Of a stretch of DNA of 64,000 nt, positions 4,525 through 58,264 are shown one piece after another. The stretch covers positions 14,155,771-14,219,770 of the forward strand of contig NC_057740.1 of the NCBI RefSeq assembly GCF_004010195.1. The letters run 5' to 3'. Source of the stretch: Chiloscyllium plagiosum. Taxonomy: Eukaryota. The notes under the pieces were generated by a model. That model saw only the letters and a program-made list of their open reading frames with translations. It was not told where the DNA came from and searched no databases. Every line of letters begins with the position of its first letter. The stretch's first letter is position 1. A program made the position numbers and the translations under genes.

Positions 4525-5930
4525 CGGGCTGAGATAAAAGGTAGGGGGGAGGGAATTTGGGGGAGGGGCGCTGGGAATACGATAGGTGGAAGGAGGTGAG
4601 GGTGAGGGTGATAGGCCGGAGAGGGGGTGGGGGCGGAGAGGTCGGGAAGAAGATTGCAGGTNNNNNNNNNNNNNNNNNNNNNNNNNNNNNNNNNNNNNNN
4701 NNNNNNNNNNNNNNNNNNNNNNNNNNNNNNNNNNNNNNNNNNNNNNNNNNNNNNNNNNNNNNNNNNNNNNNNNNNNNNNNNNNNNNNNNNNNNNNNNNNN
4801 NNNNNNNNNNNNNNNNNNNNNNNNNNNNNNNNNNNNNNNNNNNNNNNNNNNNNNNNNNNNNNNNNNNNNNNNNNNNNNNNNNNNNNNNNNNNNNNNNNNN
4901 NNNNNNNNNNNNNNNNNNNNNNNNNNNNNNNNNNAGCGGAGAGGTTGGGAAGAAGATTGCAGGTCAAGAGGGCGGTGCTGAATCCGGGGTTTGGGACTGA
5001 GATAAGGTGCGGGGAGGGAAATGAGGAAGCTGGAGAAATCTACATTCATCCCGTGTGGTTGGAGGGTTCCTAGGCGAAAGATGAGGCGCTCTTCCTCCAG
5101 GTGTCATGTGGCCAGGGTCTGGCGATAGAGAAGGCCAAGGGCCTGCATGTCCTTGGCGGAGGGGGAGTTAAAGTGTTCAGTCACGGGGTGGTTGGGTTGG
5201 TTGGTGCAAGTGTCCCAGAGGTGTTCCCTGAAACGTTCCACAAGTAGGCGGCCTGTCTCCCCAATGTAGAGGAGACCACATCAGGTGCAGCAGATACAGT
5301 AAATGGTGTGTGGAGGTGCAGGTGAATTTTCAACAGATATGGAAGGATCCATTGGCGCCTTGGAAGGAGGTGTGGGCACAAGTTTTGCACTTCTTGTGGT
5401 TGCAGGGGAAGGTGCCGGGAGTGGAGGTTGGGCTTGTGGGGGGTGTGGACCTGACGAGGGAGTCGCAGAGGGAGTGGTCTCTCCGGAATGCTGATAGGGG
5501 TGGGGAGGGAAATATATCCCTGGTGGTGGGGTCTGTTTGGAGGTGACGGAAATGATGGAGGATGATACGATGTATCCGGAGGTTGGTGGGGTGTAAGGTG
5601 AGGACCAGTGGGGTTCTGTCCTAGTGGCGATTGAAGGGGCGGGGCTCAAGGGCAGAGGTGAAGGAAGTGGAGGAGATGCGGTGGAGAGCATCGTCGACCA
5701 TGTCGTAGGGGAAATTGCGGTCTTTGATTTTAGTTCTTCACCTTTCCCAAGTTCCCTCCCCCCTACCTTTTATCTCAGCCCACTTGGCACACCAGCCTCA
5801 TTCCTGAAGAAGGGATTATGCCCGAAACGTCGATTCTCCTGCTCCTCGGATGCTGCCTGGCCTGCTGTGTTTTTCCAGCAACACATTTTTCAACTCTGGT
5901 CTCCAGCATCTGCAGTCCTCACTTTCTCCT
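4525..5930 (-). mobile_element. Neptune-type PLE fragment with inverted terminal copy (contains N gap 4662-4934)
   Basis: Minus-strand GIY-YIG region (IYCICCT...); plus-strand terminal repeat ~5745-5930 with CTGAAGA..GCCCGAAACGTC. Confidence 0.85.
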
Positions 5931-6319: not shown

Positions 6320-6750
6320 CTGGAAAGAGCAGAACGATAGCATAATGAACATTCTGATCTCATTTAGTTGACATTATTTCTCCTAAATCCTCAACCTCAC
6401 CCCTTGATATCTCCCTTTGGCATTGAGACTTATTGTAATTACATCACATACGTCCAACTCTTCACCTTTCCCAAACTGAGCATCTGAGGACAGGATACTG
6501 GGGAATAAATGCTTCTTGATAGCACTGTCACCAACACCTTCCATTATTCTGAAGATTTTTAAGAGTAGGTTTGTGGGGCAGTAACTGGATTTGTCCTGCT
6601 GGGCAATGGACATACCTGAGCAATGTCCCACATTGTCAGGTCGATACTAGAGCTACAGTAGTGCTGGTACAGGATGGCTGGAGGTGCAGCATAATTTGGA
6701 GCATAGGTCGAGAGCAAAATAGCTGAAATGTTCTTAGTGCCAGTCATCTT

Positions 6751-7035
6751 GTTGTGGTTCTGTTTGCCGAGCTGGGAATTTGTGTTGCAGACGTTTCGTC
6801 CCCTGTCTAGATGATATCCTCAGTGCTTGGGAGCCTCCTGTGAAGCACTTCTGTGATGTTTCCTCCTTCACTATAAATGCCGGAGGAAACATCACAGAAG
6901 TGCTTCACAGGAGGCTCCCAAGCACTGAGGATGTCACCTAGACAGGGGATGAAACGTCTGCAACACAAATTCCCAGCTCAGCGAGCAGAACCACAATAAT
7001 GAGCACCCGAGCTACAAATCTTCTCACAAACGTTG
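6751..7035. mobile_element. Poseidon-type PLE terminal fold-back insertion
   Basis: Inverted arms centred near 6875; GCCAGTCATCTT duplicated on both flanks; hammerhead core gcaCTGAGGA...GAAACGTCtgc. Confidence 0.8.
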
Positions 7036-7542
7036 GCCAGTCATCTTACTGTAGCTGGTGTATACAGCTGCTGCCAACATTTAATTTCAAGTCAACTAGG
7101 TGTCTTAAGGGCTTTTTTGTGGAGCAGTGGTAGTGTCCCAACCCATGGACCGGGAAGTCCAGGTTCTAGTCCCACCTGCTCCAGAGGTGTGTAATAACCT
7201 CTCCCAAAAGGTTGATTAGAAAAATAGGTCAAATAGGTGTCTTTGTCGCTGGAGACATCTGGAGGGAGACTGGGATAGATCACCCACTCAGCACTACTGG
7301 CTGAAGATAGCTGTAAAATTCTCAGCCTTGTTGGATTAGACCACAAGTGGGGATAGGAATGTTCATGGAGCCTCCAATGCCTGTAATTAATTAACTGACT
7401 ATGACCATTCTTGATTGGCAGGACATTGAGCTTTGATCTGACCCATTGATTGTGTAGTTATTTACTCATCGATTGTATCCTGTGGACAGAAGCACATGCA
7501 ACACAAAATGGAGCATTAACAGGAGTAAACACTCTTTCGTAC

Positions 7543-7692: not shown

Positions 7693-8725
7693 CTGAAATC
7701 ACAGGAGAAAAAGCGATTAATTGGGAAGTAAAAAACTATGAGGTAAACAGATACAGTGAACAGGAAGTATTGTTTATTATTGCACATAGGTTTAAAGTAA
7801 TTGATAGAAGGATTAGAGGGGATTTCAGAAGTTTTTTTACTCCATCAGGAAATGGGGTCAGGAATTCATTGCTTGTTAGGGAGGGTGAGGCCAAAACACT
7901 CATCACATTTAAAAAGTACTTAGGTATGCACTTGAAATGCTGTAACCTACAATGCTCTGCACAAGGTAGAAACTGGAATTAGCCGAATGGCTCTCTTTCA
8001 ACTAGCATAAAATGATGGGCCGAATGGTCTCTTCCTATACTGTAAATTTTTTATGGTTTTCTAGATACATACACAAAAGTTCCAAAGCAGATAAAGGTCA
8101 TTGGTGTAATGGTACTGTGTTAGATTTTGCCCTTTCTGCGACCAGACAATTTGAATCAAATTTTCCACTCTGCTCTCAAGAGTTCATCATCCTCTTTATT
8201 GTCACCTAGCTACTATCTAACAGTACCTATCTAATCTCATCTTGAATACTGACATAATATGGTGGAGGGATACTAGAAGAGAGTAATGATGCCAAATGCT
8301 GCATATAGGTCAAGAAAAGAGAAATTTTGCTCTTGTCACAGTCAGTTAGGATGTCATTTGGGACTTACATAAGAACCTTCAGTAAATGCTAAACACAGTA
8401 ATCTCTCATTCATACATAAGACCAGGTCTCTGTGACCATTAGCTTTAATCTGCCTACAAGTTTTCTCAGCTTTTGATGAAAGTTACCTGATCTATCCTCT
8501 CAAGTGAGTCATTTTGCACTGAGGGGCACTAAACTTCTGCATGTGTTCTGTTATATCACACCAAGAAAATCAGTTTCAAGACTAGGATGCAGAAGATAAA
8601 ATCAATAAAAACAAAAGAAAAACCAAAATGAGGAAACATGTCTTGTTTAACATCGGGGAGAAAATTATCAATATTTGAGGGGAATGAATGTAAATTGAAG
8701 TTAAACTGAACAATTACCAGAGGAA

Positions 8726-8900
8726 CAAAAACAAAAATTGCTGGAGAAACTCAGCAAGTCTGGAAGCATCAGTGAAGAGAAAGAAGATCACTCAATTTCC
8801 AAAGTTAACTCTTCTTTCTCTCCACAGATGTTACCAGATCTACAGAGCAATTTCTCCAGCAATTTCTGTTTTTCTTTCAGATCTTTAGTTCTTTGTTTTA
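8726..8900. mobile_element. Older PLE-terminus fold-back insertion
   Basis: Arms aaattgctggagaaa / tttctccagcaattt; TSD AATTACCAGAGGAA at 8712-8725 and 8901-8914. Confidence 0.7.
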
Positions 8901-8976
8901 AATTACCAGAGGAATACAAAATTATATGAAAATGAGCAGAATGGGAATTATTTCAAGTAGAAACTGATGGCAAGAG

Positions 8977-11019: not shown

Positions 11020-14000
11020 CCTTGTGCCTGGAACAGAAACACCACCTGCCCTGGTGTCTGGAACAGAAACACCACCTGTCCGAGTGTCTGAGATAGAAAC
11101 ACCATCTGTCCTGGTGTCTGAGACAAAAACACCACCTATCCTGGTGTCTGAAATAAAAACACTATCTGTCCAGGCATCTGAGATAGAAACACCACCTGTC
11201 CTGGTGTTTGAGATAGAAACACCACCTGTCCTGGTGTTTGAGATAGAAACACCACCTGTCCTGAAGTCTGAGATAAAAACACCACCTGTCCTGGTGTCTG
11301 AGACAGAAACACCACCTGCTGAAAATGTGTTGCTGGAAAAGCGCAGCAGGTCAGGCAGCATCCAAGGAACAGGAGAATCGACGTTTCGGGCATAAGCCCT
11401 TCTTCAGGGCAGGTGGTGTTCCTTGAAGAAACACCACCTGCCCTGATGTCTGAGATAGAAACACCACCTGTCCTGGTGTCTGAGAGAGAAACACCACCGG
11501 TCCTTGTGTCTGAGACAAAAACACCAGCTGTCCTGGTGTCTGAGATAAAAACACCACCTGTCCAGGCATCTGAGATAGAAACACCACTTGCCCTGGTGTC
11601 TGAGATAGAAACACCATCTGCACGGGTGTCTGAGACAGAAACACCACCTGTCCAGGTGTCTGAGATAAAAACACCAACTGTCCTGTGTCTGAGACAGAAA
11701 CACCACCTGTCCTGGTGTCTGAGACAGAAACACCACCTGTCCTGGTATTTAAGATAGAAACACCACCCGTCCTGGTGTCTGAGACAGAAACACCACTTGC
11801 CCTGGTGTCTGAGATAGAAACACCACGTGCCCTGGTGTTTGTGACAGAAACACCACCTGCCCTATTGTCTGAGATAGAAACACCACTTGCCCTGGTGTCT
11901 CAGATAGCAACACCACCCGTCCTGGTGTCTGAGATAGAAACACAAAGTGCCCTGGTGTCTGAGATAGAAACACCAACTGCCCTGGTGTCTGAGACAGAAA
12001 CACCACCTGCCCTGTTGTCTGAGATAGACACACCACTTGCCCTGGTGTCTGAGATAGAAACACCACCTGTCCTGGTGTCCGAGATAGAAACACCACCCGT
12101 CCTGGTGTTTGAGATAGAACCACCACTTGCCCTGGTGTCTGAGATAGAAATACCACCTGTCCCGGTGTCAGAGATAGAAACACCACATGTCCTGGTGTCT
12201 GAGACAGAAACAGCACCTGCCCAGGTGTCTGAGACAGAACCACCACTTGCCCTGGTGTCTGAGACAGAACCACCACTTGCCCTGGTGTCTGAGATAGAAA
12301 TAACACCTGTCCTGGTGTCAGAGATAGAAACACCACATGTCCTGGTGTCTGAGACAGAAACAGCACCTGTCCTAGTGTCTGAGACAGAAACACCACTTGC
12401 CCTGGTGTTTGAGATAGAAACATCACTGTCCTGGTATCTTAAACAGAAACACCACCTGTCCTAGTGACTGAGACAGAAACACCACCTGTTCTGGTGTCTG
12501 AGATAGAAACACCACTTGCCCTGGTCTCTGAGATAGAAACCCCACGTGCCCTGATGTCTGAGATAAAAACACCACTTGCCCTGGTGTCTGAGATAGAAAC
12601 ACTACTTGCATTGATGTCTGAGATAGAAACACCACCAGCCCTGGTGTCTGAGACAGAAACACCACCTGTCCAGGTATCTGAGATAGATAACCACTTGCAC
12701 TGATGTCTGAGATAGAAACACAAACTGTCCTGGTGTCTGAGATATAAACACTACCTGCCCTGGTGTCTGAGACAGAAACACCACCTGTCCTAGTGTCTGA
12801 GATATAAACACTACCTGCCCTGGTGTCTGAGACAGAAACACCACCTGTCCTGGTGACTGAGACAGAAACAACACCTGCTCAGGTATCTGAGATCGAAACA
12901 TCACCTGCCCTGATGTCTGAGATAGAAACAACTCCTGCCCTGCTGTCTGAGATAGAAACACCACCTGTCCTGGTGTCTGAGATAGAAACACCACCTGCCC
13001 AGGTGTCTGAGATAGAAACAACATATGCCCAGGCATCGGAGATAGAAACACCACCTGCCCTGGTGTCTGAGACAAAAACATCACCTATCCTAGTGTCTGA
13101 AATAAAAACACCACCTGTCCAGGCATCTGTGATAGAAACACCACCTGCCCTGCTGTCTGAGATAGAAACACCACCTGTCCTGGTGCCTGAGATAGAAACA
13201 CCACCTGCCCTGAAGTCTGAGACAGAAACACCACACATCCTGGTGTCTGAGGTAAAAACACCACCTGACCTGGTGTCTGAGATAGAAACACCACCTGTCC
13301 TGGTGTCCAAGATGGAAACACCACCCATCCTGGTGTCTGAGATAGAAACACCACTTTCCCTGGTGTCTGAGATAGAAACACCACGTGTCCTGGTGTCTGA
13401 TATAGAAATACTACTTGCGCTGGTGTCTGAATTAGAAACACCACCCGTTCTGGTGTTTGAGATAGAAACACCACTTGCCTAGTGTCTGAGATAGAAACAT
13501 CACCTGTCCTGGTGTCAGAGATAGAAACACCACATATCCTGGTTTCTGAGACAGAAACACCACTTGCCCTGGCATCTGAGATAGAAACACCACTTGCCCT
13601 GGTGTCTGAGACAGAAACACAACCTGTCCAGGTGTAAGAGATAGAAACACAATCTGTCCAGGTGTTTGAGATAGAAACACCACCTGCCCAGGTGTCTGAG
13701 ATAGAAACACCACCTGTCCAGGTGTCTGAGATAAAAACACCAGCTGTCCAGGTGTCTGAGATAGAAACACCACCTGTCCTGTTGTCAGAGATAGAAACAC
13801 CACCTGCCCTGGTGTCTGATTTAGAAACAACACATGCCCAGGTGCCTGAGATAGAAACACCACCTGTCCTGGTGTCTGAGATAAAAACACCACCGGTCCA
13901 GGCATCTGAGATAGAAACACCACATGCCCTGGTGTCTGAGATAGAAACACCATCTGCACGGGTGTCTGAGACAGAAACACCACCTTCACTGGGTCTGAGA

Positions 14001-16713: not shown

Positions 16714-17306
16714 CTGAGGAGAAAGCCACAAGGTCAGTTTCTCTCCATAAGAATAAACAGTCCCCTGGGTTCACAGCCAATTTCCCCACAACAAGGATAC
16801 CTTTTATCACCCTCTAATGCCTCACCTTTCCCCAGCAACAGGGCATAATGTGTCACACCCAATTAATCCCCCATCAATCACACAACAGATCTCATGATCT
16901 TTTCAGATCTCAGAAATACTGAACTAAGCTCTCCAACAAAATAGACCTCTTCTGCCACGCCCAAAACACCCCCAACAAAAGACTGCCCGAAACTCCTTAA
17001 ATGATACATAACCTGTGTCCCACCCAACTGAATCCCTCATTGCACAGACCCATATGAAACACCAACTCCTCTCACACCACCCTCGAAGTCATACAAAGTC
17101 CCTCCATCACATTTCAAGAAAGAGTTGGATAGAGCTCTTAAGGATAGTGGAATCAAGGGTTATTGGGCTAAGGCAGGAACAGGATACTGATTGAGGAGGA
17201 TCAGCCATGATCATAATGAATGGCGGCGCTGTCTCGAAGGGCAGAATGACCTACTCCTGCACCTATTGTCTATTGTCTATCCTATTCCTTTGCCAATAGT
17301 ACAGAC

Positions 17307-17463
17307 TCAAAAAGTGTGGTGCTGGCAAAGCACAGTTGGTCAGGCAGAGCTTATGCTCGAAACGTCGACTCTCCTGCTCCTCGGATGTTGCCTGACCAGT
17401 TGTGCTTTTCCAGCACCACACTTTTTGACTCTGATCTGCAGCATCTGCAGTCCTTACTTTCTC
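17307..17463. mobile_element. PLE-terminus fold-back insertion
   Basis: TSD CCAATAG(T/C)ACAGAC at 17293-17306 and 17464-17477; follows a CR1 tail at ~17110-17285. Confidence 0.8.
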
Positions 17464-17499
17464 CCAATAGCACAGACATCTTGTGTCACAGCCACCTTC

Positions 17500-18200: not shown

Positions 18201-19180
18201 TTCCTTATAACGTGTTTTTATAAAGAGGATGTACAGGCAAAAATGGCTGAGAATATACATTCTGAATAATGTCTGACAGATGTGAGGGAAGTTACAATGA
18301 GAAAGACTTCAAAGGGAGAAATGCCTTGCAAACTGAACTGAAATCTCCTGTGAGTTTTCTCAGATGGGAGAAAAGCTTACAGTCTAGGAATGAGGTATCT
18401 TTGTGTTCTCCCCTTTAAAGAATTCACAAAAACACACTTAAAAGCCAGTTTACATGTGCGCATGTAGACTAAGGTGTGTACTGAGGATTGTAGCAGAGAA
18501 AGCTCCTTGTCGTCCCTGCGTTGTAGATAAAAATAAATAAAATCTCTCTTCGCTAGAAGCCAGGAAGCAAATGAAACTGCAGTCTAAAGGAAATAGGGCA
18601 AAGCTATGCAGCTGACTTTCAAAGCCACAACACCCCATTGTCTAATCTACAGAAACTCAAAGACTGATTTGCATCTTTTTAAAAGAATTTTATCTTTTTT
18701 GGACTCACCTCTCATTTTTAATCTATGTGTATTGCATTACTATTTCTTCTCCCATTCATTAATATATTAACACAAGAAAGCCTGGTTAAACTGGCTCATT
18801 TTAAAACATAAATTAATTTGGGTCTGGGGGAGGGAGAAATCCACATCCCACTTTTAAATTAACTTCATTGAGACCAATGAGGGGATGGATGAATAAAGAA
18901 AGGGAGCCAGTTCATCCCTCCTCACCCCTGGAGCTTAATCATATGCCCTGGAAACGCAATAAATTGGGGAACTGAACCTAGGAGCTCTTATGACAAAAGT
19001 CACTACCAAATGACACAGCCTGTTTATCACAACTGGCTCTGAGAATTAAACTTGAGAATATTCAAAACAATATACAGTACTACAGCACTCAATTAAGAAG
19101 CATAGGATCACTATCCAACAATTCTTTTTAAAAAGTAAAGGTGTGAGCACAGGTTGAGAACAGGAATCAGTTTGCCTGCA

Positions 19181-19304
19181 TGAAGAAGGGCTTATGCCCG
19201 AAACGTCGATTCTCCTGTTCCCTGGATGCTGCCTGACCTGCTGCGCTTCTCCAGCAACACATTTTCAGCTCTGATCTCCAGCATCTGCAGACCTCACTTT
19301 CTCC
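19181..19304 (+). mobile_element. PLE terminal (single arm) insertion
   Basis: CCTGCATGA duplicated at 19175-19183 and 19303-19311; begins at the hammerhead core. Confidence 0.8.
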
Positions 19305-19346
19305 TGCATGATAAAATACTCGGGCAACACTCCAGGAATGAAGAGC

Positions 19347-22126: not shown

Positions 22127-22295
22127 AAATTAAGAATCACACAACACCAGGTTATAGTCCAACAGGTTTATTCAGAAGTACAAGCTTTCAGAGTGCTGCT
22201 CCTCCTGCCCCAGTAAGGTGCAGTGCTCCAAAATCTTGTACTTCTAAATAAACCTTTTGGACTATAACCTGGTGTTGTGTGAATTTTAACTTTGA
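22127..22295. mobile_element. Family-B PLE-terminus fold-back
   Basis: Arms CACACAACACCAGGTTATAGTCCAA / TTGGACTATAACCTGGTGTTGTGTG. Confidence 0.8.
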
Positions 22296-27220: not shown

Positions 27221-27891
27221 CTGCAGGAAAAGCTAAAGAAAGATTCCATTGTGAAGGGAGATGACAGATTAACTGTGCTCAATCTCTCCTAAATCAGACA
27301 TCAGACAATGTTGCTGAGCTAGCAGGGAGAAGCACCGCTCACTTTGTTACTCAGCCACACATGTCAGAAGGCTCTGGGCTGGATACCTCATCCGTTTTGT
27401 GTTGGTTGATTTTCCCATGTTTGTGAAAGGAGCAGGGGCTGCTACAACTGGTCTCAATGCGTGAAGTGAGGGTCACTCTGCCTGCTTCTGATCACAATCA
27501 GAACCCTGTGGTCACTGGCTGAGAACCCTGTCGTCACTGGCTGTACTGGTCAGCCAGTGTACTGGTCAGAACCCTGTGGTCACTGGCTGAGAAAGGTGTG
27601 AATGCTGACCAGACTGTTGGTTTCATGTGGGGTATGATCTCTCTTCCAAAACGCCCTAATCCCAAACATTTTATATGATTTAGCAGGATATCTAATCAAG
27701 TCCGATCCCAGTCTCACCCGAAGCTCATTAAAAGGATCCTTCCATTCACTAGTGATAATTCTCATTCACTTTGATGTCCTTAAGTCCAGGTACTGCACGC
27801 CAATGGTAGTATCTAACTCGGAGCAGTCTTGTTCTTGCTACCCACTGAGAAGAACAAAGGTGCCTTCTAGAACTGATGAACCATTGATTAA

Positions 27892-28084
27892 GGAGAAAGT
27901 GAGGTCTGCAGATGCTGGAGATCAGAGCTGGAAATGTGTTGCTGGAAAAGCGCAGCAGGTCAGGCAGCATCCAGGGAACAGGAGAATCGATGTTTCCTGA
28001 AGAAGGGCTTATGCCCGAAACGTCGATTCTCCTGTTCCCTGGATGCTGCCTGACCTGCTGCACTTTTCCAGCAACACATTTCCA
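27892..28084. mobile_element. Family-A PLE-terminus fold-back insertion
   Basis: TSD GAACCATTGATTAA at 27878-27891 and 28085-28098. Confidence 0.88.
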
Positions 28085-28159
28085 GAACCATTGATTAATA
28101 CTGATCTAACACCTAATTTCATTTGGCTTGAACAGACATTTAGAAAGTGACAGCTGTGT

Positions 28160-34444: not shown

Positions 34445-35337
34445 GAAAGCGTTTTCTGTGAAATGATAATTAATGTACAACAAAACTTAATATATGTCAA
34501 TGGAATTAATTAATAAATGTTTTAGTTTAGTTTTTATTTAATTTGCCTTTACATTAAATTGCTCACAGGTAAAGAATTGGGAACACTTATTAAAATGTTT
34601 ATTTTTGGTGATAAACCAATTTTCAGTTGTCTAAATAAAATGGTCTCAAGTTTCAATAGATAAATGCATCAAGACCTTCTAAGTAATGGAAAAAAATTAC
34701 CGTCTTTAATGCTGCCTGATGGAAGATTTAACTTTTGATTATGGAAAAGAATTTTAATGGAAATGAAAATGGAACCTAGCCAGAAAAATTTCAAGTATAT
34801 TTTTGATACATTGGGTGGAATCTTTTGTTTTCATCAGGTGTCTTGTTTGCTTGCTCAAAAGGTAGTGAGACACCTGACCTGATTTTTCAGAGAAAGCCCC
34901 AATGTATCTTCCTCCAAATGGGCACTTTTGACGGCAGTTGTGGACCTCTCTCCAAAATCACATCCCCGGGGCAGGAAATCCTGCCAATGAGAGGCTGGTA
35001 CCTCTTGTACTTGGCAGCACATTTGAGAAGGCCATGGCTGTTACGGGAGGTCAGCCAACATCATGAAGACCAAGAGGTCGGGCAAGTGTCTTTTTAGGAG
35101 GATTGTGTTTCAGGGATTGGGGATTGTGGAGAGAGGAGCAGAGAAGTTGGAAGCAAGGGAAAAGGTGGCTCACAGTGGCCACATAGTGATTTGTATCCAC
35201 TCCCCTCAACTATGCACAAATTAGTGCAGACTGAAGGAAATGCCACTCCACCAATTAGCAGCCTGCCTGCACTGGTTTACCAGTCATGGGGGCCAACTCT
35301 TTATCGTCTCAACTGGAACTGGGGTAATTGAAACCCT

Positions 35338-35550
35338 CGAGGAGAAGGTGAGGGCTGCAGATGCTGGAGATCAGAGCTGAAAATGTGTTGCTTGAAAAGC
35401 GCAGCAGGTCAGGCAGCATCCAAGGAACAGGAGAATCGACGTTTCGGGCATAAGGACGTTTCCTGAAGAAGGGCTTATGCCCAAAACGTCGATTCTCCTG
35501 TTCCTTGGATGCTGCCTGACCTGCTGCGCTTTTCCAGCAACACATTTTCA
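35338..35550. mobile_element. Family-A PLE-terminus fold-back insertion
   Basis: TSD GTAATTGAAACCCT at 35324-35337 and 35551-35564. Confidence 0.88.
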
Positions 35551-35787
35551 GTAATTGAAACCCTGGCAGGATTAGGAACTTAACTAATCCTTAAGTGGTC
35601 ATTATTAGATCACCCAAGGGCGTCAACTGGCGATGGGCAAGAAGGTTGACCTTGGGCTTTCCTAATCAGAACATGATTTGGGCAGAGGGATTCTGGGATG
35701 CTATCAGACTTGCTGCCTTTCGGACTGGAAGATTCCACACAATTTCCCCATTGTGGAAACTCTGCCCCCAGAAAATTTTGAACCTAC

Positions 35788-37159: not shown

Positions 37160-38627
37160 AAAGTTAAAAATCACACCACACCAGGTTATAGTCCAACAAG
37201 TTTATTTGGAAGCATTAGCTTTCGGTGCACTGCTCCTTCATCAAGTAGTTGTGGAGCAGCATAAGACACAGAATTTATAGCAAAAAGTTACAGTGTCATG
37301 TGGCTGAAATGATATATTGAACAAACCATATATTGTTGTTAAGTCTTTCATCTTTTAGAATGGGTTGCAGGTTTCGGTTCATTAATATGTAAATCCAAGA
37401 ACTTCATTTAAGTCACATTCTCAAAATAACTTAAGGTTTTATAAAAAAAGTGACATCTTAGCTCAGACAATGCATTAAAGGTGTGAGGTTAGAGTCTGTC
37501 TGTATCCCAAGCTTGCACACACACAAACACATACTCTCTCATGTACACTCACACTCACAGGCACACAGACTCTCTCTCTCTCTCTCTCTCTCATGTAAGC
37601 ACACACACATATAAGTCTATGGGGTGAATTTGTACTTGCAGAATTATATTTGCAGATACATTCTATTTTGCTCAAACATTGCACAATCTGCAAGCAGTCA
37701 ATACATATAATATTTTGTAAATTCCACTTTGGAAATAGAACCAGTCTGACTCAAGATTGGGATACAGACAGACTCTAACCTCACACCTTTAATGCACTAT
37801 CTGAGCTAAGATGTCACTTTTCTTTTATAAAACCTTAGGTTATGGATGTAGGTTTGCTCACTGAGCTGGAAGGTTCATTTCTAGATGTTTCGCCACCCTA
37901 CTAGGTAACATGTTCAGTGGGCCTCAGGACACCACTTTGACTGGGACAACACATCCATCCTAGGACAAGCCAAACAAAGACATGCACGAGAATTCCTAGA
38001 AGCATGGCATTCCAACCGGAACTCTGTCAACAAACACATTGAGTTAGACCTCATCTACCACCCCTGAGAAAAAGAACAGGAAGTGATTTCACCACAGGAA
38101 ATGACATCACCACAGGAAATTACATCACCAACCCAAAGAAACACAAACATATAAATAGAAAGCAGGAATTATCAGCAGTGCTTCGTCTGAGGCCCACTGA
38201 AGATGTTACTTAGTAGGGTGTTGAAACGTCTGGAAATGAACCTTCCAGCTCAGCAAGCAAACCTATATCCAGAACCTCAACCTGAGCTACAAATCTTCTC
38301 AAAACTCGCTAAGACCTTAGGTTATCTTGAGAATGTTACTTAAAATAAATTCTGGGATTTACATATTAATGAATTGAAACCTGCAACCCATTCTAAAAGA
38401 TGAAAGACCTAACAACAATCTGTGGTTTGTTCGATATATCATTTTAGTTGCATGACACCGTAATCTTTTACTACAAGTTCTGTGTCTTATGGTGCTGCTT
38501 CACAACCACCTGATGAAGGAGCAGCGCTCTGAAAGCTAGTGATTCCAAATAAACCTGTTGGACTGTAACATGGTGTTGTGTGATTTTTAACTTTGTCCAC
38601 CCCAGTCCAACACCGGCACCTCCACAT
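37160..38627. mobile_element. Family-B PLE with long inverted arms, with a nested Poseidon-type piece (~37844-38313)
   Basis: Outer TSD TCATAATAATC(T/A)CAA; inner TSD ACCTTAGGTTAT; CA/CT microsatellite at ~37515-37610. Confidence 0.85.
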
Positions 38628-45835: not shown

Positions 45836-48013
45836 ATAGAATAGAATCCCTACAATGTTGAAACAGGCCATTCAGCCCAACAAATCCACACTGACACTCT
45901 GAAGAGTAACCCAACCAGACCCATTTCCCTGTGTTTACCCCTGACTAATTTACCTAACCTACATATCCCTCAACACTATGGACACTTTAGCATGGCCAAT
46001 TCACCTCATCTGCACATCTTTGGATTGCAGGAGGAAACCAGAGCAAATGAGGAGAATGTGCAAACTCCACACAGACCGTCACCCAAGGCTGGAATCAAAC
46101 CCAGGTCACTGGCACTTTGATTCTGGATCAGTGGTGCTGGAAGAGCACAGCAGTTCAGGCAGCATCCGAGGACTGGCAAAATCCGAGGACAGGCAAAATC
46201 GACGTTTCGGGCAAAAGCCCTTCATCAGGATTAAAGGCAGAGAGCCTGAAGCGTGGAGAGATAAGCTAGAGGAGGGTGGGGGTGGGGAGAGAGTAGCATA
46301 GAGTACAATAGGTCAATNNNNNNNNNNNNNNNNNNNNNNNNNNNNNNNNNNNNNNNNNNNNNNNNNNNNNNNNNNNNNNNNNNNNNNNNNNNNNNNNNNN
46401 NNNNNNNNNNNNNNNNNNNNNNNNNNNNNNNNNNNNNNNNNNNNNNNNNNNNNNNNNNNNNNNNNNNNNNNNNNNNNNNNNNNNNNNNNNNNNNNNNNNN
46501 NNNNNNNNNNNNNNNNNNNNNNNNNNNNNNNNNNNNNNNNNNNNNNNNNNNNNNNNNNNNNNNNNNNNNNNNNNNNNNNNNNNNNNNNNNNNNNNNNNNN
46601 NNNNNNNNNNNNNNNNNNNNNNNNNNNNNNNNNNNNNNNNNNNNNNNNNNNNNNNNNNNNNNNNNNNNNNNNNNNNNNNNNNNNNNNNNNNNNNNNNNNN
46701 NNNNNNNNNNNNNNNNNNNNNNNNNNNNNNNNNNNNNNNNNNNNNNNNNNNNNNNNNNNNNNNNNNNNNNNNNNNNNNNNNNNNNNNNNNNNNNNNNNNN
46801 NNNNNNNNNNNNNNNNNNNNNNNNNNNNNNNNNNNNNNNNNNNNNNNNNNNNNNNNNNNNNNNNNNNNNNNNNNNNNNNNNNNNNNNNNNNNNNNNNNNN
46901 NNNNNNNNNNNNNNNNNNNNNNNNNNNNNNNNNNNNNNNNNNNNNNNNNNNNNNNNNNNNNNNNNNNNNNNNNNNNNNNNNNNNNNNNNNNNNNNNNNNN
47001 NNNNNNNNNNNNNNNNNNNNNNNNNNNNNNNNNNNNNNNNNNNNNNNNNNNNNNNNNNNNNNNNNNNNNNNNNNNNNNNNNNNNNNNNNNNNNNNNNNNN
47101 NNNNNNNNNNNNNNNNNNNNNNNNNNNNNNNNNNNNNNNNNNNNNNNNNNNNNNNNNNNNNNNNNNNNNNNNNNNNNNNNNNNNNNNNNNNNNNNNNNNN
47201 NNNNNNNNNNNNNNNNNNNNNNNNNNNNNNNNNNNNNNNNNNNNNNNNNNNNTGGACTGTTCTACGTAGCCAACAAAGAGACAGGCATTGCTGGGGCCCA
47301 TACGTGTGCCCATGGCTACCCCTTTGGTCTGGAGGAAGTGGGAGGATTCAAAGGAGAAATTGTTAAGGGTGAGGACCAGTTCGGCCAAACGAATGAGAGT
47401 GTCGGTGGAAGGGTACTGTTGGGAACGTCTGGAGAGGAAAAAATGGAGGGCTTGGAGGCCCTAGTCATGGCGGATGGAGGTATAGAGGGATTGGATATCC
47501 ATGGTGAAGATGAGGCGTTGGGGGCCGGGGAAACGGAAGTCTTGGAGGAGGTGGAGGGCGTGGGTGGTGTCTCGAACGTATGTGGGGAGTTCCTGGACTA
47601 GAGGGGATAGGACAGTGTCGACGTAGGTAGAGATGAGTTCAGTGGGGCAGGAGCATGCTGAGACACTGTCCCCTTGACTTGTCTGGACTTGTTCGATCTG
47701 CCTAGCTCCTTTTCCACCTATCCACTCCACCCTCTCCTCCCCCACTGACCTATTGTACTCTATGCTACTCCCTCCCCATCCCCACCCTCCTCTAGCTTAT
47801 CTCTCCACGCTTCAGGCTCTCTGCCTTTATTCCTGATGAAGGGCTTTTGCCCGAAACGTCGATTTTGCCTGTCCTCGGATTTTGCCTGTCCTCGGATGCT
47901 GCCTGAACTGCTGTGCTCTTCCAGCACCACTGATCCAGAATCTGGTTTCCAGCATCTGCAGTCATTGTTTTTACCCTGGCACTTTGAGGCAGCAGTACTA
48001 ACCACTGTGCCAC
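45836..48013 (-). mobile_element. HE1 SINE interrupted by a Neptune-type PLE (46121-47975; N gap 46318-47252)
   Basis: TSD CTGGCACTTTGA at 46109-46120 and 47976-47987; RT motifs FTMDIQSLYTSI and GVAMGTRMGPS; terminal repeats in inverted orientation. Confidence 0.88.
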
Positions 48014-48579
48014 CCACCAATGATCTTGATGTTGAGTGGAGATTTACAGGTGGTTCATACTGCAGAGTCTTCAATGTCTGACTAATCACAAAACTTAACT
48101 TTAACCTATGGTGGGCCTTTATGGCAGATCAGAGTCAAGCCAGATACTTTCTAATAAAATCATTCAGAGATGCTATTACACACTTTTGGAGCAAGTGGGA
48201 CTTGAACCCAGGTCTCCTTGTCCAGAGGTAGGGACACTACCACTGTATCACAAGATGCCACAGAGTCAGGTGAATGTTGACTTAATAATTGATTCTAGCT
48301 GTTGTTATGAGGAATTTTTTTTTAATAAATAGATGATCTGGTTATCAGCATATTGCTGTATTTGGGAACTTGCAGTGTGGAAATTGCCTGCTTGCTTTTC
48401 CGATAACATATTTCTGAATTATCTTGGTCAGAGATGTTATTTACACACCTCTGGAATAAATGTGACTTGAACTCAAATTTCCTGGCTCAGAGATAGAGAC
48501 ATTACTCACCTACCCCCCACCCTCCGATTTTTAAAAAATCAACCTAATGGAGATGCTAATGACATATGGCTGGGACAGG

Positions 48580-48806
48580 AGAAAGTGAGGTCTGCAGATG
48601 CTGGAGATCAGAGCTGGAAATGTGTTGCTGGAAAAGCGCAGCAGGTCAGGCAGCATCCAGGGAACAGGAGAATCGACGTTTCGGGCACAAGCCCTTCTTC
48701 AGGAATGAGCTCATTCCTGAAGAAGGGCTTGTGCCCGAAACGTCGATTCTCCTGTTCCCTGGAAGCTGCCTGACCTGCTGCGCTTTTCCAGCAACACATT
48801 TCCAGC
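48580..48806. mobile_element. Family-A PLE-terminus near-perfect palindrome
   Basis: 98-bp arms 48612-48709 and 48710-48807 with one mismatch; TSD TATGGCTGGGACAGG at 48565-48579 and 48807-48821. Confidence 0.92.
48717..48744 (+). ncRNA. Minimal hammerhead ribozyme core (PLE type); mirror copy on the minus strand at 48675-48702
   Basis: CTGAAGA-A-GGGC-TTGT-GCCC-GAA-ACGT-C: conserved CUGANGA and GAAA boxes, stem II, GUC triplet, palindromic ACGU in place of stem III. Stem I is weak. Confidence 0.6.
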
Positions 48807-50246
48807 TATGGCTGGGACAGGTTGGACTTGAAGCCAGATTCAGAGGTAAGAACTCTATCACTGCGCCACAACAGTGCAATGATTCTAATCAACCTGCGCT
48901 GGCATGTTAAAACACAACCCAGGTGCAGGTGGAACTTGATCTGAGATGTCGTGGCTCAGAGGTAGGGACCCCACAACTGCGTCACAGAAGCCCAAAGATT
49001 CAGGCGATTGCTGACTTAATTTTTTTTTGTACTTCACTCATAGCACATGTGTGTAGCTGGCTGACCAGCATTTACTGACCCCTGCCTAATTGCCCTTGAG
49101 CTGCCTTCTTGAAACACTGTAGTCTTGAACCTTCTGTGGACTGACCCACAATGCCATTAAGGGAGGGAACTCCAGGATTTTCACCCAGTAACAGTCAAGG
49201 AACTACAAAATATTTTCAAGTCAAGGATGCTGAGTGCCTTGGAGGGGAACTTGCAGGTGGTGTACCCTCATATCTGCTGCCCTTTTCCTTCCAGATGGAA
49301 GATGCCATGGGTTTGGAAGGTTCTGTGTGAGGATCTTTGGTGAACTTCTACAGTGTATCTTCTAGATAGTACACACTGCTGCTACTCAACATAGGCGGTG
49401 GAAGGTGTGGATGCTTATGAATGTAGAGTCGATCAAGCAGAACTGAATGGTTTCAAGCTTCTTGAGTGTTGTTGCAGCTGCATTCGTCCAGACAAGTGGG
49501 GAGTATTCGATCATACTCCTGACTTGGGCCATCCCTGGAGGGGTGGGGGAGGGAGAATAGCTCGGAATGCGATAGGTAAGATGAGCGTTGTGGGGTGATG
49601 GTGATAGGCTGGAGCAGATAGGTGGGAAGGAAGATGGACGGGTAGGACAGTTCAAGAAGGCGGTGCCAGTTTTAGTGTTGGCAGGTGCTGCCATCAAGGG
49701 TGCCCTCTCTCGCCACTACTATTTACATTGGTGATCCAGCCACAGGTGGAAGCCATTCAGAAAGATCCCAATATAACTGCCCCAGAGGTAGGGTCAGGCA
49801 GGAATAGAATTATCCTCTATGCAGATGATGTCCTTCTCTTTTTAACTGATTCAATGACATCGTGCCCTGCTTAATACAACTGATTAATCTATTTGGTTTG
49901 TTTTCAGGGTATAAAATTAATTTCATGAAATCAGAGGCCACGCCTGTGTGGGGTCTTACTAGTATATCCACCTTTGGGAATGCAACCTGTTTCCCCTTCC
50001 ACTGGTCACAGGGAGGTTTTCTGTATTTAGTCATTTTTATTACCCCGGTTTTTGATCAATTATATAGAGCCAATTACGATCAGCTACTAGAGAAAATCAG
50101 GCAGGATCTTCGGCGTTGGGAAGATCTTCCGAAATCTTGGTTGGGCAGGATAGCTCTGGTTAAGATAAATGTTCTTCCTTGCTTGTTATATCCCATGAGA
50201 ATGCTCCCTTTGTTGCTGCCAAAGCAAATACTGTGCAGGTTTTACA

Positions 50247-50449
50247 GCTGAAAATGTGTTGTTGGAAAAGCGCAGCAGGTCAGGCAGCATCCAAGAAGCA
50301 GGAGAATCAACGTTTCGGGCATGAGCCCTTCTTCATGCCCGAAACGTCGATTCTCCTGCTCCTTGGATGCTGCCTGACCTGCTGCGCTTTTCCAGCAACA
50401 CATTTTCAGCTCTGATCTCCAGCATCTGCAGTCCTCACTTTCACCTAGA
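50247..50449. mobile_element. Family-A PLE fold-back nested in the L1
   Basis: TSD AGG(T/C)TTTACAGCTG at 50237-50250 and 50450-50463. Confidence 0.85.
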
Positions 50450-50480
50450 AGGCTTTACAGCTGTTTTGGATCTTTTATTT

Positions 50481-53495: not shown

Positions 53496-53501
53496 TTTAT
53501 T
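53496..53501 (-). terminator. Putative MRPL54 polyadenylation signal AATAAA
   Basis: Minus-strand AATAAA ~410 nt after the stop, followed by U-rich downstream sequence. Confidence 0.55.
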
Positions 53502-53671
53502 CTGCATCATTTATCAGTAAATGGAAAATGTGAAGCACATTTTTCCCAAGTGTCACTGTCTGAATCACATCACCCATGTTCAAGGAACACAGACACAATT
53601 CCTTTGGAACACAGACAATTCCTTCACAATACACTCCTGTGTGTTTGATTGTTGGTTTCAGTGCAAGTAGC

Positions 53672-53803
53672 TTAAAAATGTGTTGCTGGAAAAGCGCAGG
53701 TCAGGCAGCATCAAAGGAACAGGAGAATCGATGTTTCGGGCATAAGTCCGTCCAGCAACACATTTTTAAGCTCTGATCCCCAGCATCTGCAGTGCTCACT
53801 TTC
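53672..53803. mobile_element. Family-A PLE fold-back in the putative MRPL54 3'UTR
   Basis: TSD TTCAGTG(C/T)AAGTAGC at 53657-53671 and 53804-53818. Confidence 0.82.
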
Positions 53804-53909
53804 TTCAGTGTAAGTAGCACAGGATGTCCGTGATTTGAATTCTCTCCTTCAGACTGCAATCCTCATTGTCGAGAAATGGATCTCCGAGTCCAATATCCTT
53901 AAGATTTTT

Positions 53910-55650: not shown

Positions 55651-56873
55651 GATGATTCCAGGGGGGCAGAATCTGAATTAGGCCAATTAAAAATTGGGAA
55701 AAACTTTTCCACATAAAGGGTTAATAGAGTCTGGAAATCACTGCATTAAATCAGCCATTTAACTGAAGAGCTTAAAGACGAAAGATACACAAACAATAAC
55801 AAAAGAAGCACGAGCAGGAACTGGTCAGTTGGTATTTTCAGTCCGCTCTGACATTCAACACAATAATGGCTAACCTTCTACCTCAATTCTGCCTGCCACA
55901 CTGTCCCCATTATTGTCCTTAGTATCTAAAAACCCATCAGCCTCTGTCTTGAATCTACTCAAAAATTGAGTATTTCTGGAAATGAGAATTCCAAAGGGTC
56001 ACAAATCATTTACTGATGTCTCATTTCAGTTCTACTCTGGAGATAATGGCCTTATGAATCCCTAATTGGGGAAACATTTTCTTAGTACTGACCCTGTCAA
56101 TCCTCTGAGATATTACGTTTCCATTAGAAGAACTCTCAAATATATTCTTCCATAACTGTACACATCACACCAGTGGCCTCATCAACATCTTATATAAGTG
56201 CTGGCCACATCCATATCCCATAAATTAATTTTAAAAATATGGACTTTAACCCAAACCTTCCAACTCAGAGACAGAGATACTATCACTGCATCATAAAACC
56301 CTAAACTTCGAAAAGGTGCTGCAGAGCTGCTTCTTTCATGGAAGTGAATAACTCCCGGGACCATTTCAGACTATTTAAGATTTAAGACCATCCAATGTGG
56401 AACCACAAAAGCAGGATTGGACGAGGATTGCAGATTTCCTTCCCAAGAGGACATTAGTGAGCCAAAAACGTTTTACTACAATTCGATCGTCACAGCTACT
56501 GATGCGAGCATTTTAACTGAACTTAAATTGCATGACTGCTACAAAAGAGGATTTCAACTCGTGTCTTTGGATTGTTAGTTCAGACCTCAGGGTGATGAGT
56601 CCCTAAGATAACCAATATGTTGTATTTCTCACTTTGTTGAACATATTCAAGTATACATATGGAGAAAGAACAGGGACTGGATTAACAAAATGAAGTTATC
56701 ATGACTAATAACAATGAATATCCCCTACAGACAATTATTGGACAAGAGGACAATAACCCCAAAACCATGACTATGGGCTATTACTACAGTTAGGTACCCA
56801 TACGTCCACTCGATCAAGGGCAAAAGGAAGTAAAGGAAGCACAACAAGTATCCAGGTAAGTGACAAAACTCAC

Positions 56874-57030
56874 CACTCAGGGTATTCTGCGTCTGGCCGC
56901 AGTTCTGGATCTTTGCCTTGTTTATAAATATTGACTCCCACAGCATGCGTGGTCAAAATTTCAGGATCCTTACAAACCTCTGGACCTTGCAGAACTTCTT
57001 TAACTCCCATCTTTCCTTTCCCCTTGACAG
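56874..57030 (-). CDS. MRPL54: Mitochondrial ribosomal protein mL54, exon 2
   Basis: ttgcag|[54 protein letters not shown]|gtgagt; matches the MRPL54 motif GVNIYK...PDAEYPEWL. Confidence 0.95.
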
Positions 57031-57179: not shown

Positions 57180-57490
57180 CTGTCTGAGCTATCACTTTAG
57201 CTTATAAACCCTTAAGTTATCTCAAGCATGTGACTTAATAGTAGTTCTGGGATTTACATATTAAATGAACCAAAACTTGCAACCCATTCTAAAAGATGAA
57301 AGACTTAACAGCAATCTAGATTTGTTCAATATATCGTTTCAGTTGCATGACACTAATTTTTTTGCTATAAACTGTGTCTTATGATCCTGCTCCACAGCAA
57401 CGTGATGAAGGAGCAGCGCTCCAAAAGCTAGTGCTTCCAAATAAACCTGTTGGACTATAACCTGGTGTTGTGTGATTTTTAAATTTAAAT
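57180..57490 (+). mobile_element. Family-B PLE terminus
   Basis: TGATGAAGGAGCAGCGCTCCAAAAGCTA core; similar to 38320-38590. Confidence 0.8.
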
Positions 57491-58161: not shown

Positions 58162-58264
58162 CCGCCTTCTTGGCATATCCACGAGCCACGACCGGACACG
58201 CTCGGACCGACTGCAACGCGAGCCTCACCGAGCAACACCGCCCTAACCCAGCACAGGTGGCCAT
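58162..58264 (-). CDS. MRPL54: Mitochondrial ribosomal protein mL54, exon 1 (targeting presequence)
   Basis: MATCAGLGRCCSVRLALQSVRACPVVARGYAKKA, G|gtgagt; Arg-rich, acid-free presequence ending RGYAKK; lies in CpG island. Confidence 0.88.

What the first reader, a model, noticed from the sequence alone, without database searches (positions are those of the whole stretch)
48565..48821. Family of short, TSD-flanked, fold-back Penelope termini with hammerhead ribozyme cores
Seen in sequence: many 120-290 bp insertions consist only of a PLE terminal repeat, usually joined to its own inverted copy, each with a 9-15 bp target duplication (6751, 8726, 17307, 19181, 27892, 35338, 48580, 50247, 53672; 22127 is a fold-back where I found no TSD). 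The 48.6 kb copy is a 196-bp palindrome with no loop and one mismatch, with a hammerhead core in each arm. Turn-around points differ between copies but cluster at or beside the hammerhead core. Established: PLE terminal repeats carry minimal hammerheads and often insert with inverted ends. Inference: these are ORF-less products of fold-back or template switching near the ribozyme. In transcripts they would form long dsRNA that also masks the ribozyme, so they behave like a MITE-shaped class of retro-derived hairpins.
Basis: partly seen in the sequence, partly recalled or inferred. Interest (0 to 1): 0.7.

Follow-up and report, generated by a model that had tools for sequence, protein, structure and literature searches.

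The report
Double-primed Penelope leader palindromes
These mirror-image DNA stubs are real and very common insertions of a Penelope-type jumping gene in a layout already described; their ends suggest that both cut DNA strands likely copy the short front end of the element's RNA up to its predicted start, rather than folding back at the ribozyme's cut site.

Summary
In detail: a 196-bp loop-less palindrome with one mismatch, a 15-bp TSD, and a minimal hammerhead core in each arm. The genome holds at least 9,531 similar fold-backs. They are ORF-less forms of the known 'inverted pLTR plus one-sided tail' insertion of endonuclease-bearing Penelope-like elements (PLEs), not MITEs.

Arms seldom end at the GUC cut (8 of 110). 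They stop about 32 nt upstream, at an initiator-like site 31 nt behind a conserved TATA-position motif, often with an extra G. A second family also stops 31 nt behind its TATA box. One outer end is the element end; the other lies 33-37 nt inside. In 57 of 100 fold-backs each arm holds sequence the other lacks, so neither is a plain copy of the other.

Best reading (0.6): both nicked strands prime reverse transcription at the two tail-bounding sites of the mRNA leader. Both cDNAs run to the capped 5' end and join by microhomology. RNA reads did not show that start.

The scan's earlier notes reached this reading on other DNA, including this genome.

The parts
48565..48579 (.). Left target-site duplication (15 bp)
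   Evidence: identical to 48807-48821
48578..48611 (-). One-sided 34-nt tail (3' end of the tailed arm; its last 2 nt overlap the TSD)
   Evidence: first row
48612..48709 (-). Palindromic part of the tailed arm (element-sense on the - strand)
48675..48702 (-). Minimal hammerhead core of the tailed arm; predicted cut after 48675
   Evidence: activity untested
48710..48807 (+). Tail-less arm (element-sense on +), ending at the inner, tail-bounding site
48711..48717 (+). Initiator-like motif; A at 48713 is the predicted +1 where most short copies of the family stop (this copy runs 3 nt further)
   Evidence: initiator consensus recalled
48717..48744 (+). Minimal hammerhead core of the tail-less arm; predicted cut after 48744
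   Evidence: activity untested
48807..48821 (.). Right target-site duplication (15 bp)
27878..28098 (-). Same-family fold-back, 14-bp TSD; tail-less arm reaches 23 nt further 5' than the tailed arm
35324..35564 (-). Same-family fold-back, 14-bp TSD, short filler at the centre
50237..50463 (+). Same-family fold-back, 14-bp TSD (1 mismatch)
53657..53818 (+). Same-family fold-back with very unequal arms, 15-bp TSD (1 mismatch); lies in a host 3' UTR
17293..17477 (+). Older related fold-back, 14-bp TSD (1 mismatch)
19175..19311 (+). Single-arm tailed copy, 9-bp TSD; not a fold-back
6739..7047 (+). Fold-back of another PLE family, 12-bp TSD, 118-bp arms with a core in each, one-sided tail
8712..8914 (+). 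Decayed fold-back of a third family, 14-bp TSD, no intact core
22127..22292 (+). Decayed fold-back of a fourth family (family Q), no TSD found
46109..47987 (-). Long form of the same layout: tail-less arm collinear with an RT fragment, inverted tailed arm, 12-bp TSD, assembly gap inside
4935..5930 (.). Decayed ORF end (CX4CxxC linker and GIY-YIG motif, - strand) joined to an inverted tailed terminus (+ strand); 5731-5930 served as the coordinate reference

Best explanation
These are dead-end insertions of a Penelope-like retroelement, likely made when both ends of a staggered DNA cut prime reverse transcription on the roughly 130-nt leader of the element's mRNA, and the two cDNAs likely run off its predicted capped 5' end and join each other. 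SHOWN: head-to-head arms, a TSD of about 15 bp, one outer end at the element end and the other 33-37 nt inside, arms from the same sequence subfamily, a sharp 5' limit 4 nt before the hammerhead's C3, and an ORF start 37 nt after the tail. FROM THE LITERATURE: a purified PLE protein cuts and extends both strands, starts at the two sites that bound the tail, and does not need ribozyme cleavage. INFERRED: (1) one strand starts at the outer site and the other at the inner site; (2) the 5' limit is the transcription start; (3) the extra G is a copy of the cap; (4) the two cDNA 3' ends anneal through 1-5 nt of inverted microhomology, with trimming of one arm or a short filler; (5) initiation at the downstream pLTR gives the long, ORF-bearing forms of the same layout. 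The hammerhead is a passenger at the front of the RNA.
For: Two fixed outer ends: the tail-less end lies 33-37 nt inside in 40 of 52 young fold-backs. Both outer ends overlap the target by 2 nt or more in 22 and 21 of 52, against 16% in a shuffle null. Tail-less ends also occur on copies without an inverted partner nearby.

Arms are not copies of each other: the tail-less arm reaches at least 4 nt further 5' in 57 of 100, the tailed arm in 27, and 16 are within 3 nt. At common variant sites both arms agree 45 times and differ 3 times in 62 young copies.

5' limit: of 134 short arms the mode is at C3-4 (33), and only 2 pass -12. 721 loop-less palindromes are centred exactly there, against 20 for the 48.6-kb centre (a longer pattern).

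Promoter geometry: TTTATCT lies at -31 to -33 from that A in 27 of 33 long copies. Family Q has TATAAAT mostly at -40 from C3 (7 of 13), and 11 of 36 other arms end at -8 to -10, beyond its helix I.

Extra G: where the template C is replaced, the base before the A is G 3,444, A 1,634, T 646 times genome-wide. In fold-back junctions the complementary C occurs 277 times against 130 for A plus T.

The ORF's ATG is 166 nt after the predicted +1 in L141. In vitro precedent: PMC11167929.
Against: RNA reads showed no pile-up of starts or ends at the predicted +1. 94% of laid reads run on into unlike sequence, so they are mostly host-embedded copies; about 2% of one poly(A) single-cell run was read.

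Family Q shows no G excess: 1 of 8 at -9. In the 6751 family none of 11 hits ends at a TATA+31 position.

Many G or C cases can also come from the other arm or from templated slips (rows), and no matched control at another end position was run.

Which arm leads is nearly even in the unbiased set (29 against 22, p=0.40), so a fixed lead-and-follow order on one RNA is not shown. 16 of 55 unbiased fold-backs have neither arm near the 5' limit. The 48.6-kb copy itself runs 3 nt past the predicted +1. Trimming of a hairpin centre after insertion could mimic unequal arms. The in vitro precedent is a Poseidon element from a lizard, not this family.
Confidence: 0.6

Rival explanations
1. Self-primed hairpin: one cDNA (or an antisense RNA) folds back and copies itself. 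The endonuclease then resolves the hairpin, leaving the tail on one side, and later trimming of the centre makes the arms unequal.
For: Self-priming is proposed in print for PLE head-to-head palindromes (PMC3846280), and the tail is ascribed to endonuclease resolution (PMC8557442). It explains the arms' shared variants and the central microhomology (31 of 50 targeted copies overlap at the junction).
Against: It needs an extra deletion step for the 57 of 100 copies in which each arm has unique sequence. An intramolecular fold should leave a loop, yet 721 plus 20 centres are loop-less. In vitro the tail's bounds are RT start sites.
Confidence: 0.2
2. The ribozyme sets the junction: cleavage at GUC, or the folded hammerhead, stops or redirects the RT.
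For: In this family the limit coincides with the 5' edge of helix I. Many junctions lie inside the core. In Drosophila Penelope an intron end maps to the same edge (PMC4209133), so another RNA-processing event there is possible.
Against: Only 8 of 110 arm ends lie within 3 nt of the cut and 44 lie at ref 67-76, so the copied RNAs were mostly uncleaved. In family Q the stop is about 6 nt beyond helix I. No AG precedes the stop in two of three young subfamilies. Cleavage is not needed in vitro.
Confidence: 0.1
3. A MITE-like or SINE-like unit: a few master palindromes are amplified whole.
For: High copy number and recurrent identical centres. 11 of the 20 copies with the 48.6-kb centre belong to one subfamily.
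Against: That centre occurs in three subfamilies (11, 6, 3) with different tail-less ends. Other junctions recur across loop variants. The ends are asymmetric and TSD length varies from 11 to 20 bp.
Confidence: 0.07
4. Assembly artefact.
For: The assembly has gaps inside long PLE copies. No read spans this palindrome.
Against: Perfect TSDs, a one-sided tail, 79 rare variants on one arm only, and an opposite-strand joint in raw reads.
Confidence: 0.03

Closest known systems
Inverted 5'-truncated copy plus one-sided 30-40 bp tail of EN+ PLE insertions (PMC8557442; Adineta vaga Pen2a_Av, PMC3846280)
   Same: Head-to-head inverted pLTR, tail on one end, short TSD, palindromes at the inverted junction, TATA and initiator-like motifs in the pLTR.
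   Different: Here there is no ORF, both arms are 130 nt or shorter, the order is 10^4-10^5 copies, and the centres have a sharp 5' limit. Those papers explain the layout by self-priming or endonuclease resolution.
Poseidon of Anolis carolinensis in vitro (PMC11167929)
   Same: Two internal RT start sites bound the tail; both strands are cut and extended; uncleaved RNA is the template.
   Different: The text read does not link two-strand extension to palindromic insertions. Its ORF starts in stem II, whereas here the ORF starts 37 nt after the tail. The family here has a Neptune-type linker.
Minimal type I PLE hammerheads (PMC4209133)
   Same: Conserved core, extra base between 9 and 10.1, G10.1-C11.1 pair, palindromic 15.2-16.2 with no helix III.
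   Different: Helix I is 3-4 bp with a U-U mismatch in this subfamily. In the fold-back the two cores are complementary, not tandem, so the dimer form would not be expected.
LINE-1 twin priming (recalled, not read)
   Same: Both target strands prime on RNA; the cDNAs are joined by microhomology.
   Different: L1 inversions flip adjacent, mostly non-overlapping segments. Here the same segment is copied twice and the second start site is fixed.
MITEs; non-LTR retrozymes (bioRxiv 10.64898/2026.07.22.740005, passages)
   Same: Short and non-coding; hairpin-shaped (MITE) or linked to PLEs and bearing a hammerhead (retrozyme).
   Different: No symmetric termini or fixed TSD; not tandem arrays; no sign of amplification as a unit.

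Membership tests
EN+ Penelope-like element | Terminus belongs to an element with RT and C-terminal GIY-YIG | tested here: met
   Terminus is collinear with the ORF end (L057; window 46.1-47.7 kb) and the ORF start (L141). Related ORF pieces hit PF00078 at E 2.6e-8 and PF01541 weakly (E 0.005, below cut-off); 3 of the 5 pieces had no hit. No intact full-length copy was retrieved.
EN+ Penelope-like element | pLTR in tandem or inverted arrangement | tested here: met
   Inverted. Partial tandems: L140, L141, L147, L148.
EN+ Penelope-like element | 30-40 bp tail on one end | tested here: met
   33-37 nt in 40 of 52, range 30-45.
Neptune clade | CX2-5CxxC linker upstream of GIY-YIG | tested here: met
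   CX4CxxC in the window ORF fragment; definition from PMC8557442. The motif is shared with Nematis.
Neptune clade | RT phylogeny | not tested
   No tree was built.
Minimal PLE hammerhead | Core, helix II and palindromic 15.2-16.2 | tested here: met
   Rfam gave no hammerhead match at E up to 1.
Minimal PLE hammerhead | Helix I pairing | tested here: inconclusive
   Pairs 1, 2 and 4 hold in 92%, 88% and 78% of 165 cores, pair 3 in 46%; truncated copies are included. Other families show compensating pairs.
Minimal PLE hammerhead | Self-cleavage as a dimer | not testable with these tools
   No read-end pile-up at the cut.
MITE | Symmetric terminal inverted repeats at both ends | tested here: not met
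   One-sided tail.
MITE | Fixed-length TSD and amplification as one unit | tested here: not met
   TSD 11-20 bp; the same centre in three subfamilies.
Non-LTR retrozyme | Tandem head-to-tail hammerhead units | tested here: not met
   The 48.6-kb copy is head-to-head and single.

The most novel reading that the evidence does not exclude
PLEs integrate by a symmetric, dimer-driven double TPRT: each half of the staggered cut starts its own cDNA at one of the two tail-bounding sites, and the element never primes a classical second strand. About 10^5 mini-palindromes in this genome record the reaction, map the capped mRNA start to the base, and explain the inverted pLTR and the one-sided tail together.
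Probability: 0.45. Interest if true: 0.65.

Novelty: new variant of a known kind. Interest (0 to 1): 0.45.

Why it matters
How PLEs make their inverted ends and one-sided tail is still open; PMC11167929 leaves the later steps unvalidated. These copies give a large natural record with sharp predictions for the existing in vitro system: two primed strands, one start site each, run-off at the cap, and microhomology joining. They are also a large potential source of host hairpin RNA (about 34 per Mb) and can be misread as MITEs or miRNA precursors (all but one of 20 weak Rfam matches were miRNA families). The layout itself is known and the 48.6-kb copy has no sign of function.

Tried and rejected
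Rfam found no hammerhead; only sub-threshold miRNA-family matches and one tRNA match.

A fixed 'tail-less arm leads' order was not supported in the unbiased set (29:22) and only weakly in the targeted set (33:17, p=0.03).

A splice acceptor as the cause of the stop was rejected for two of three young subfamilies, which lack an AG there.

Run search: no holder is on record as RNA. Laying reads showed no start or end pile-up; X20 laid nothing.

A-to-I editing: T>C was listed at 9 places in RNA reads against 3 in contigs of X15, and was strand-biased at some. A G>A change was also strand-biased, and one expressed locus could explain both, so this is inconclusive.

The TATA+31 test was uninformative in the 6751 and 38.2-kb families (11 and 10 hits).

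A link to human Eulor/UCON hairpin repeats got no support from the passages read in PMC5753468. PMC13000458 gave nothing on cap copying.

No intact autonomous copy appeared among ORFs of 250 aa or more in the loci held.

Full report
OBSERVATION. The window is G000:C31:14155771-14219770 in a 3.56-Gb genome. That it is a shark rests on my recall of its repeats and on the scan's notes. At 48.6 kb two 98-bp arms meet with no spacer and one mismatch, between perfect 15-bp TSDs. Each arm has a CTGAAGA-helix II-GAAACGTC core. One arm carries 34 extra nt at its outer end. Nine of the ten listed loci are fold-backs and nine have TSDs. They fall into at least four terminus families, and only two have a complete core in both arms.

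ABUNDANCE. 9,531 loci have the two arm anchors head-to-head (control 0). I fetched 120 stretches of about 10 kb: 50 centred on the first hits and 70 at regular places. With the window and 19 junction loci, parsing gave 289 clusters, of which 135 were fold-backs. The 70 regular stretches hold 23 tailed fold-backs in 679 kb, about 34 per Mb or roughly 1.2 x 10^5 per genome (a rough extrapolation).

WHAT THE TERMINUS IS. It follows the GIY-YIG-type ORF end (L057) and precedes the ORF start: an ATG lies 37 nt after the tail in L141. Related ORF pieces hit RT (E 2.6e-8) and, weakly, GIY-YIG; 3 of 5 pieces had no hit. A CX4CxxC linker points to Neptune or Nematis. The window also holds long forms of the same layout with ORF pieces inside (46109-47987, 12-bp TSD). 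So the minis are the short end of the known inverted-pLTR-plus-tail insertion.

OUTER ENDS. Among 71 young fold-backs with both ends near their usual places (44 targeted, 13 junction-selected, 14 unbiased), 52 had an exact TSD of 10 bp or more and could be anchored. TSDs were 11-20 bp (38 of 52 were 14-16). The tail-less end lay 33-37 nt inside in 40 of 52. Both ends overlapped the target by 2 nt or more in about 40%, against 16% in a null. The element continues past the tailed end into the ORF, so initiation is internal. This matches a purified PLE that extends both strands and starts at the two sites bounding the tail (PMC11167929).

CENTRES. 55 of the 66 unbiased fold-backs passed the filter (tail present, filler 45 nt or less). 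In 38 of them at least one arm reaches ref 64-76, the 5' edge of the hammerhead; 1 goes beyond and 16 fall short. Only 8 of 110 arm ends are within 3 nt of the cut. With long copies removed, 134 short arms peak at 4 nt before C3 and only 2 pass -12. Genome-wide, 5,724 copies have a non-template base right before that A (G 3,444, A 1,634, T 646), while 10,669 read through. 721 loop-less palindromes are centred on it. The 48.6-kb centre, 3 nt further, occurs 20 times in three subfamilies with different outer ends.

WHY THERE. The stop fits an initiator consensus (recalled). A TTTATCT motif sits at -31 to -33 in 27 of 33 long copies while much of the spacer varies. Family Q gives a partly independent test. 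Its TATAAAT lies mostly 40 nt before C3, and 11 of 36 other arms end at -8 to -10, again about 31 nt behind the box and beyond its helix I. About six of those 36 are long copies missed by the filter. PLE pLTRs with TATA and initiator motifs are reported, and Drosophila Penelope has an internal promoter with an initiator. The G excess (26 of 33 at the mode; C 277 against A+T 130 in junctions) would fit copying of the cap (recalled RT behaviour). Many cases can also come from the other arm or from slips, and family Q lacks the excess. RNA reads showed no start pile-up and were mostly host-embedded copies, so the start is predicted, not seen.

TWO cDNAs OR ONE HAIRPIN. In 62 young copies the arms share subfamily variants 45 times and differ 3 times. 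They mismatch each other at 1.8% against 3.9% between loci, with 79 rare one-arm changes against 15 shared. That means one source template and little later conversion. Yet in 57 of 100 fold-backs the tail-less arm reaches at least 4 nt further 5' while the other arm alone has the tail (27 the reverse, 16 level). In those 57 neither arm can be a plain copy of the other. Loop-less centres fit two identical cDNA ends annealing by a self-complementary tip. Junctions show 1-5 nt overlaps in 31 of 50 targeted copies and fillers in 18. A hairpin trimmed later remains possible.

MECHANISM (0.6). A staggered cut of about 15 nt is made. Each strand likely primes at one tail-bounding site in the mRNA leader, both cDNAs likely run to the 5' end, and they join by microhomology. 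Initiation at the downstream pLTR would give the long forms. Rivals: self-primed hairpin with endonuclease resolution (0.2), ribozyme-set junction (0.1), unit amplification (0.07), artefact (0.03).

RNA CONSEQUENCES. A transcript across the 48.6-kb copy is predicted to form one long hairpin. Unique flank next to it appeared only as one low-depth contig in a run guessed to be RNA. Editing is inconclusive.

LITERATURE SEEN. PMC11167929: parts 1-2 of 4 (abstract, main text, start of methods); its supplementary figures were not seen and may bear on the ends. Passages only: PMC8557442, PMC3846280, PMC4209133, PMC2377424, PMC5753468, PMC13000458, bioRxiv 10.64898/2026.07.22.740005. Searches listed no paper that, by listing or passages read, ties PLE palindromes to double priming or to the transcription start. 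The library is incomplete, and Arkhipova 2006 and Evgen'ev and Arkhipova 2005 were not read. L1 twin priming, core-promoter consensus and cap copying are recalled.

EARLIER SCAN NOTES. 57 findings in at least 10 genomes hold the same words; several give double priming and one, from this genome, the capped start. I had written this reading before the look-up (note); their agreement is not independent evidence.

VERDICT. Real and abundant, in a known layout, with a testable mechanistic signal. Interest 0.45.

Noticed in passing
window 53.5-58.3 kb (- strand): Spliced host gene (exons 58162-58264, 56872-57030, and about 53.5-54040); exon 2 hits PF08561, so it is MRPL54-like (name recalled). The 53672 fold-back lies between its stop codon and an AATAAA near 53501, so likely inside its 3' UTR.
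   Followed up: partly
window 37426-38315: A fold-back of a further family (about 37426-37843) abuts an inverted PLE insertion with a short tail-less arm and a long tailed arm; a 12-bp TSD was read by eye.
   Followed up: partly
window 11318-11408: A tail-less single arm of the family sits inside a 30-bp tandem array that spans roughly 10.9-15 kb.
   Followed up: no
L140, L141, L147, L148: Partial tandems in which leader copies that run into the ORF start are joined head to tail; two units in L141 begin with an extra G at the predicted +1.
   Followed up: partly
L024, L026, L056, L065: A minority of fold-backs have the tail on both arms, as if both strands used the outer start site; no TSD was found for these.
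   Followed up: no
L112, L113, L063: Long low-complexity arrays in fetched stretches; some translated frames of L112 resemble the terminus, so it may be a satellite with PLE pieces.
   Followed up: no
window 57.3-57.5 kb: A repeat with 93 RNA reads ending in poly(A) at 57460, inside the host gene's intron; likely another expressed repeat family.
   Followed up: no
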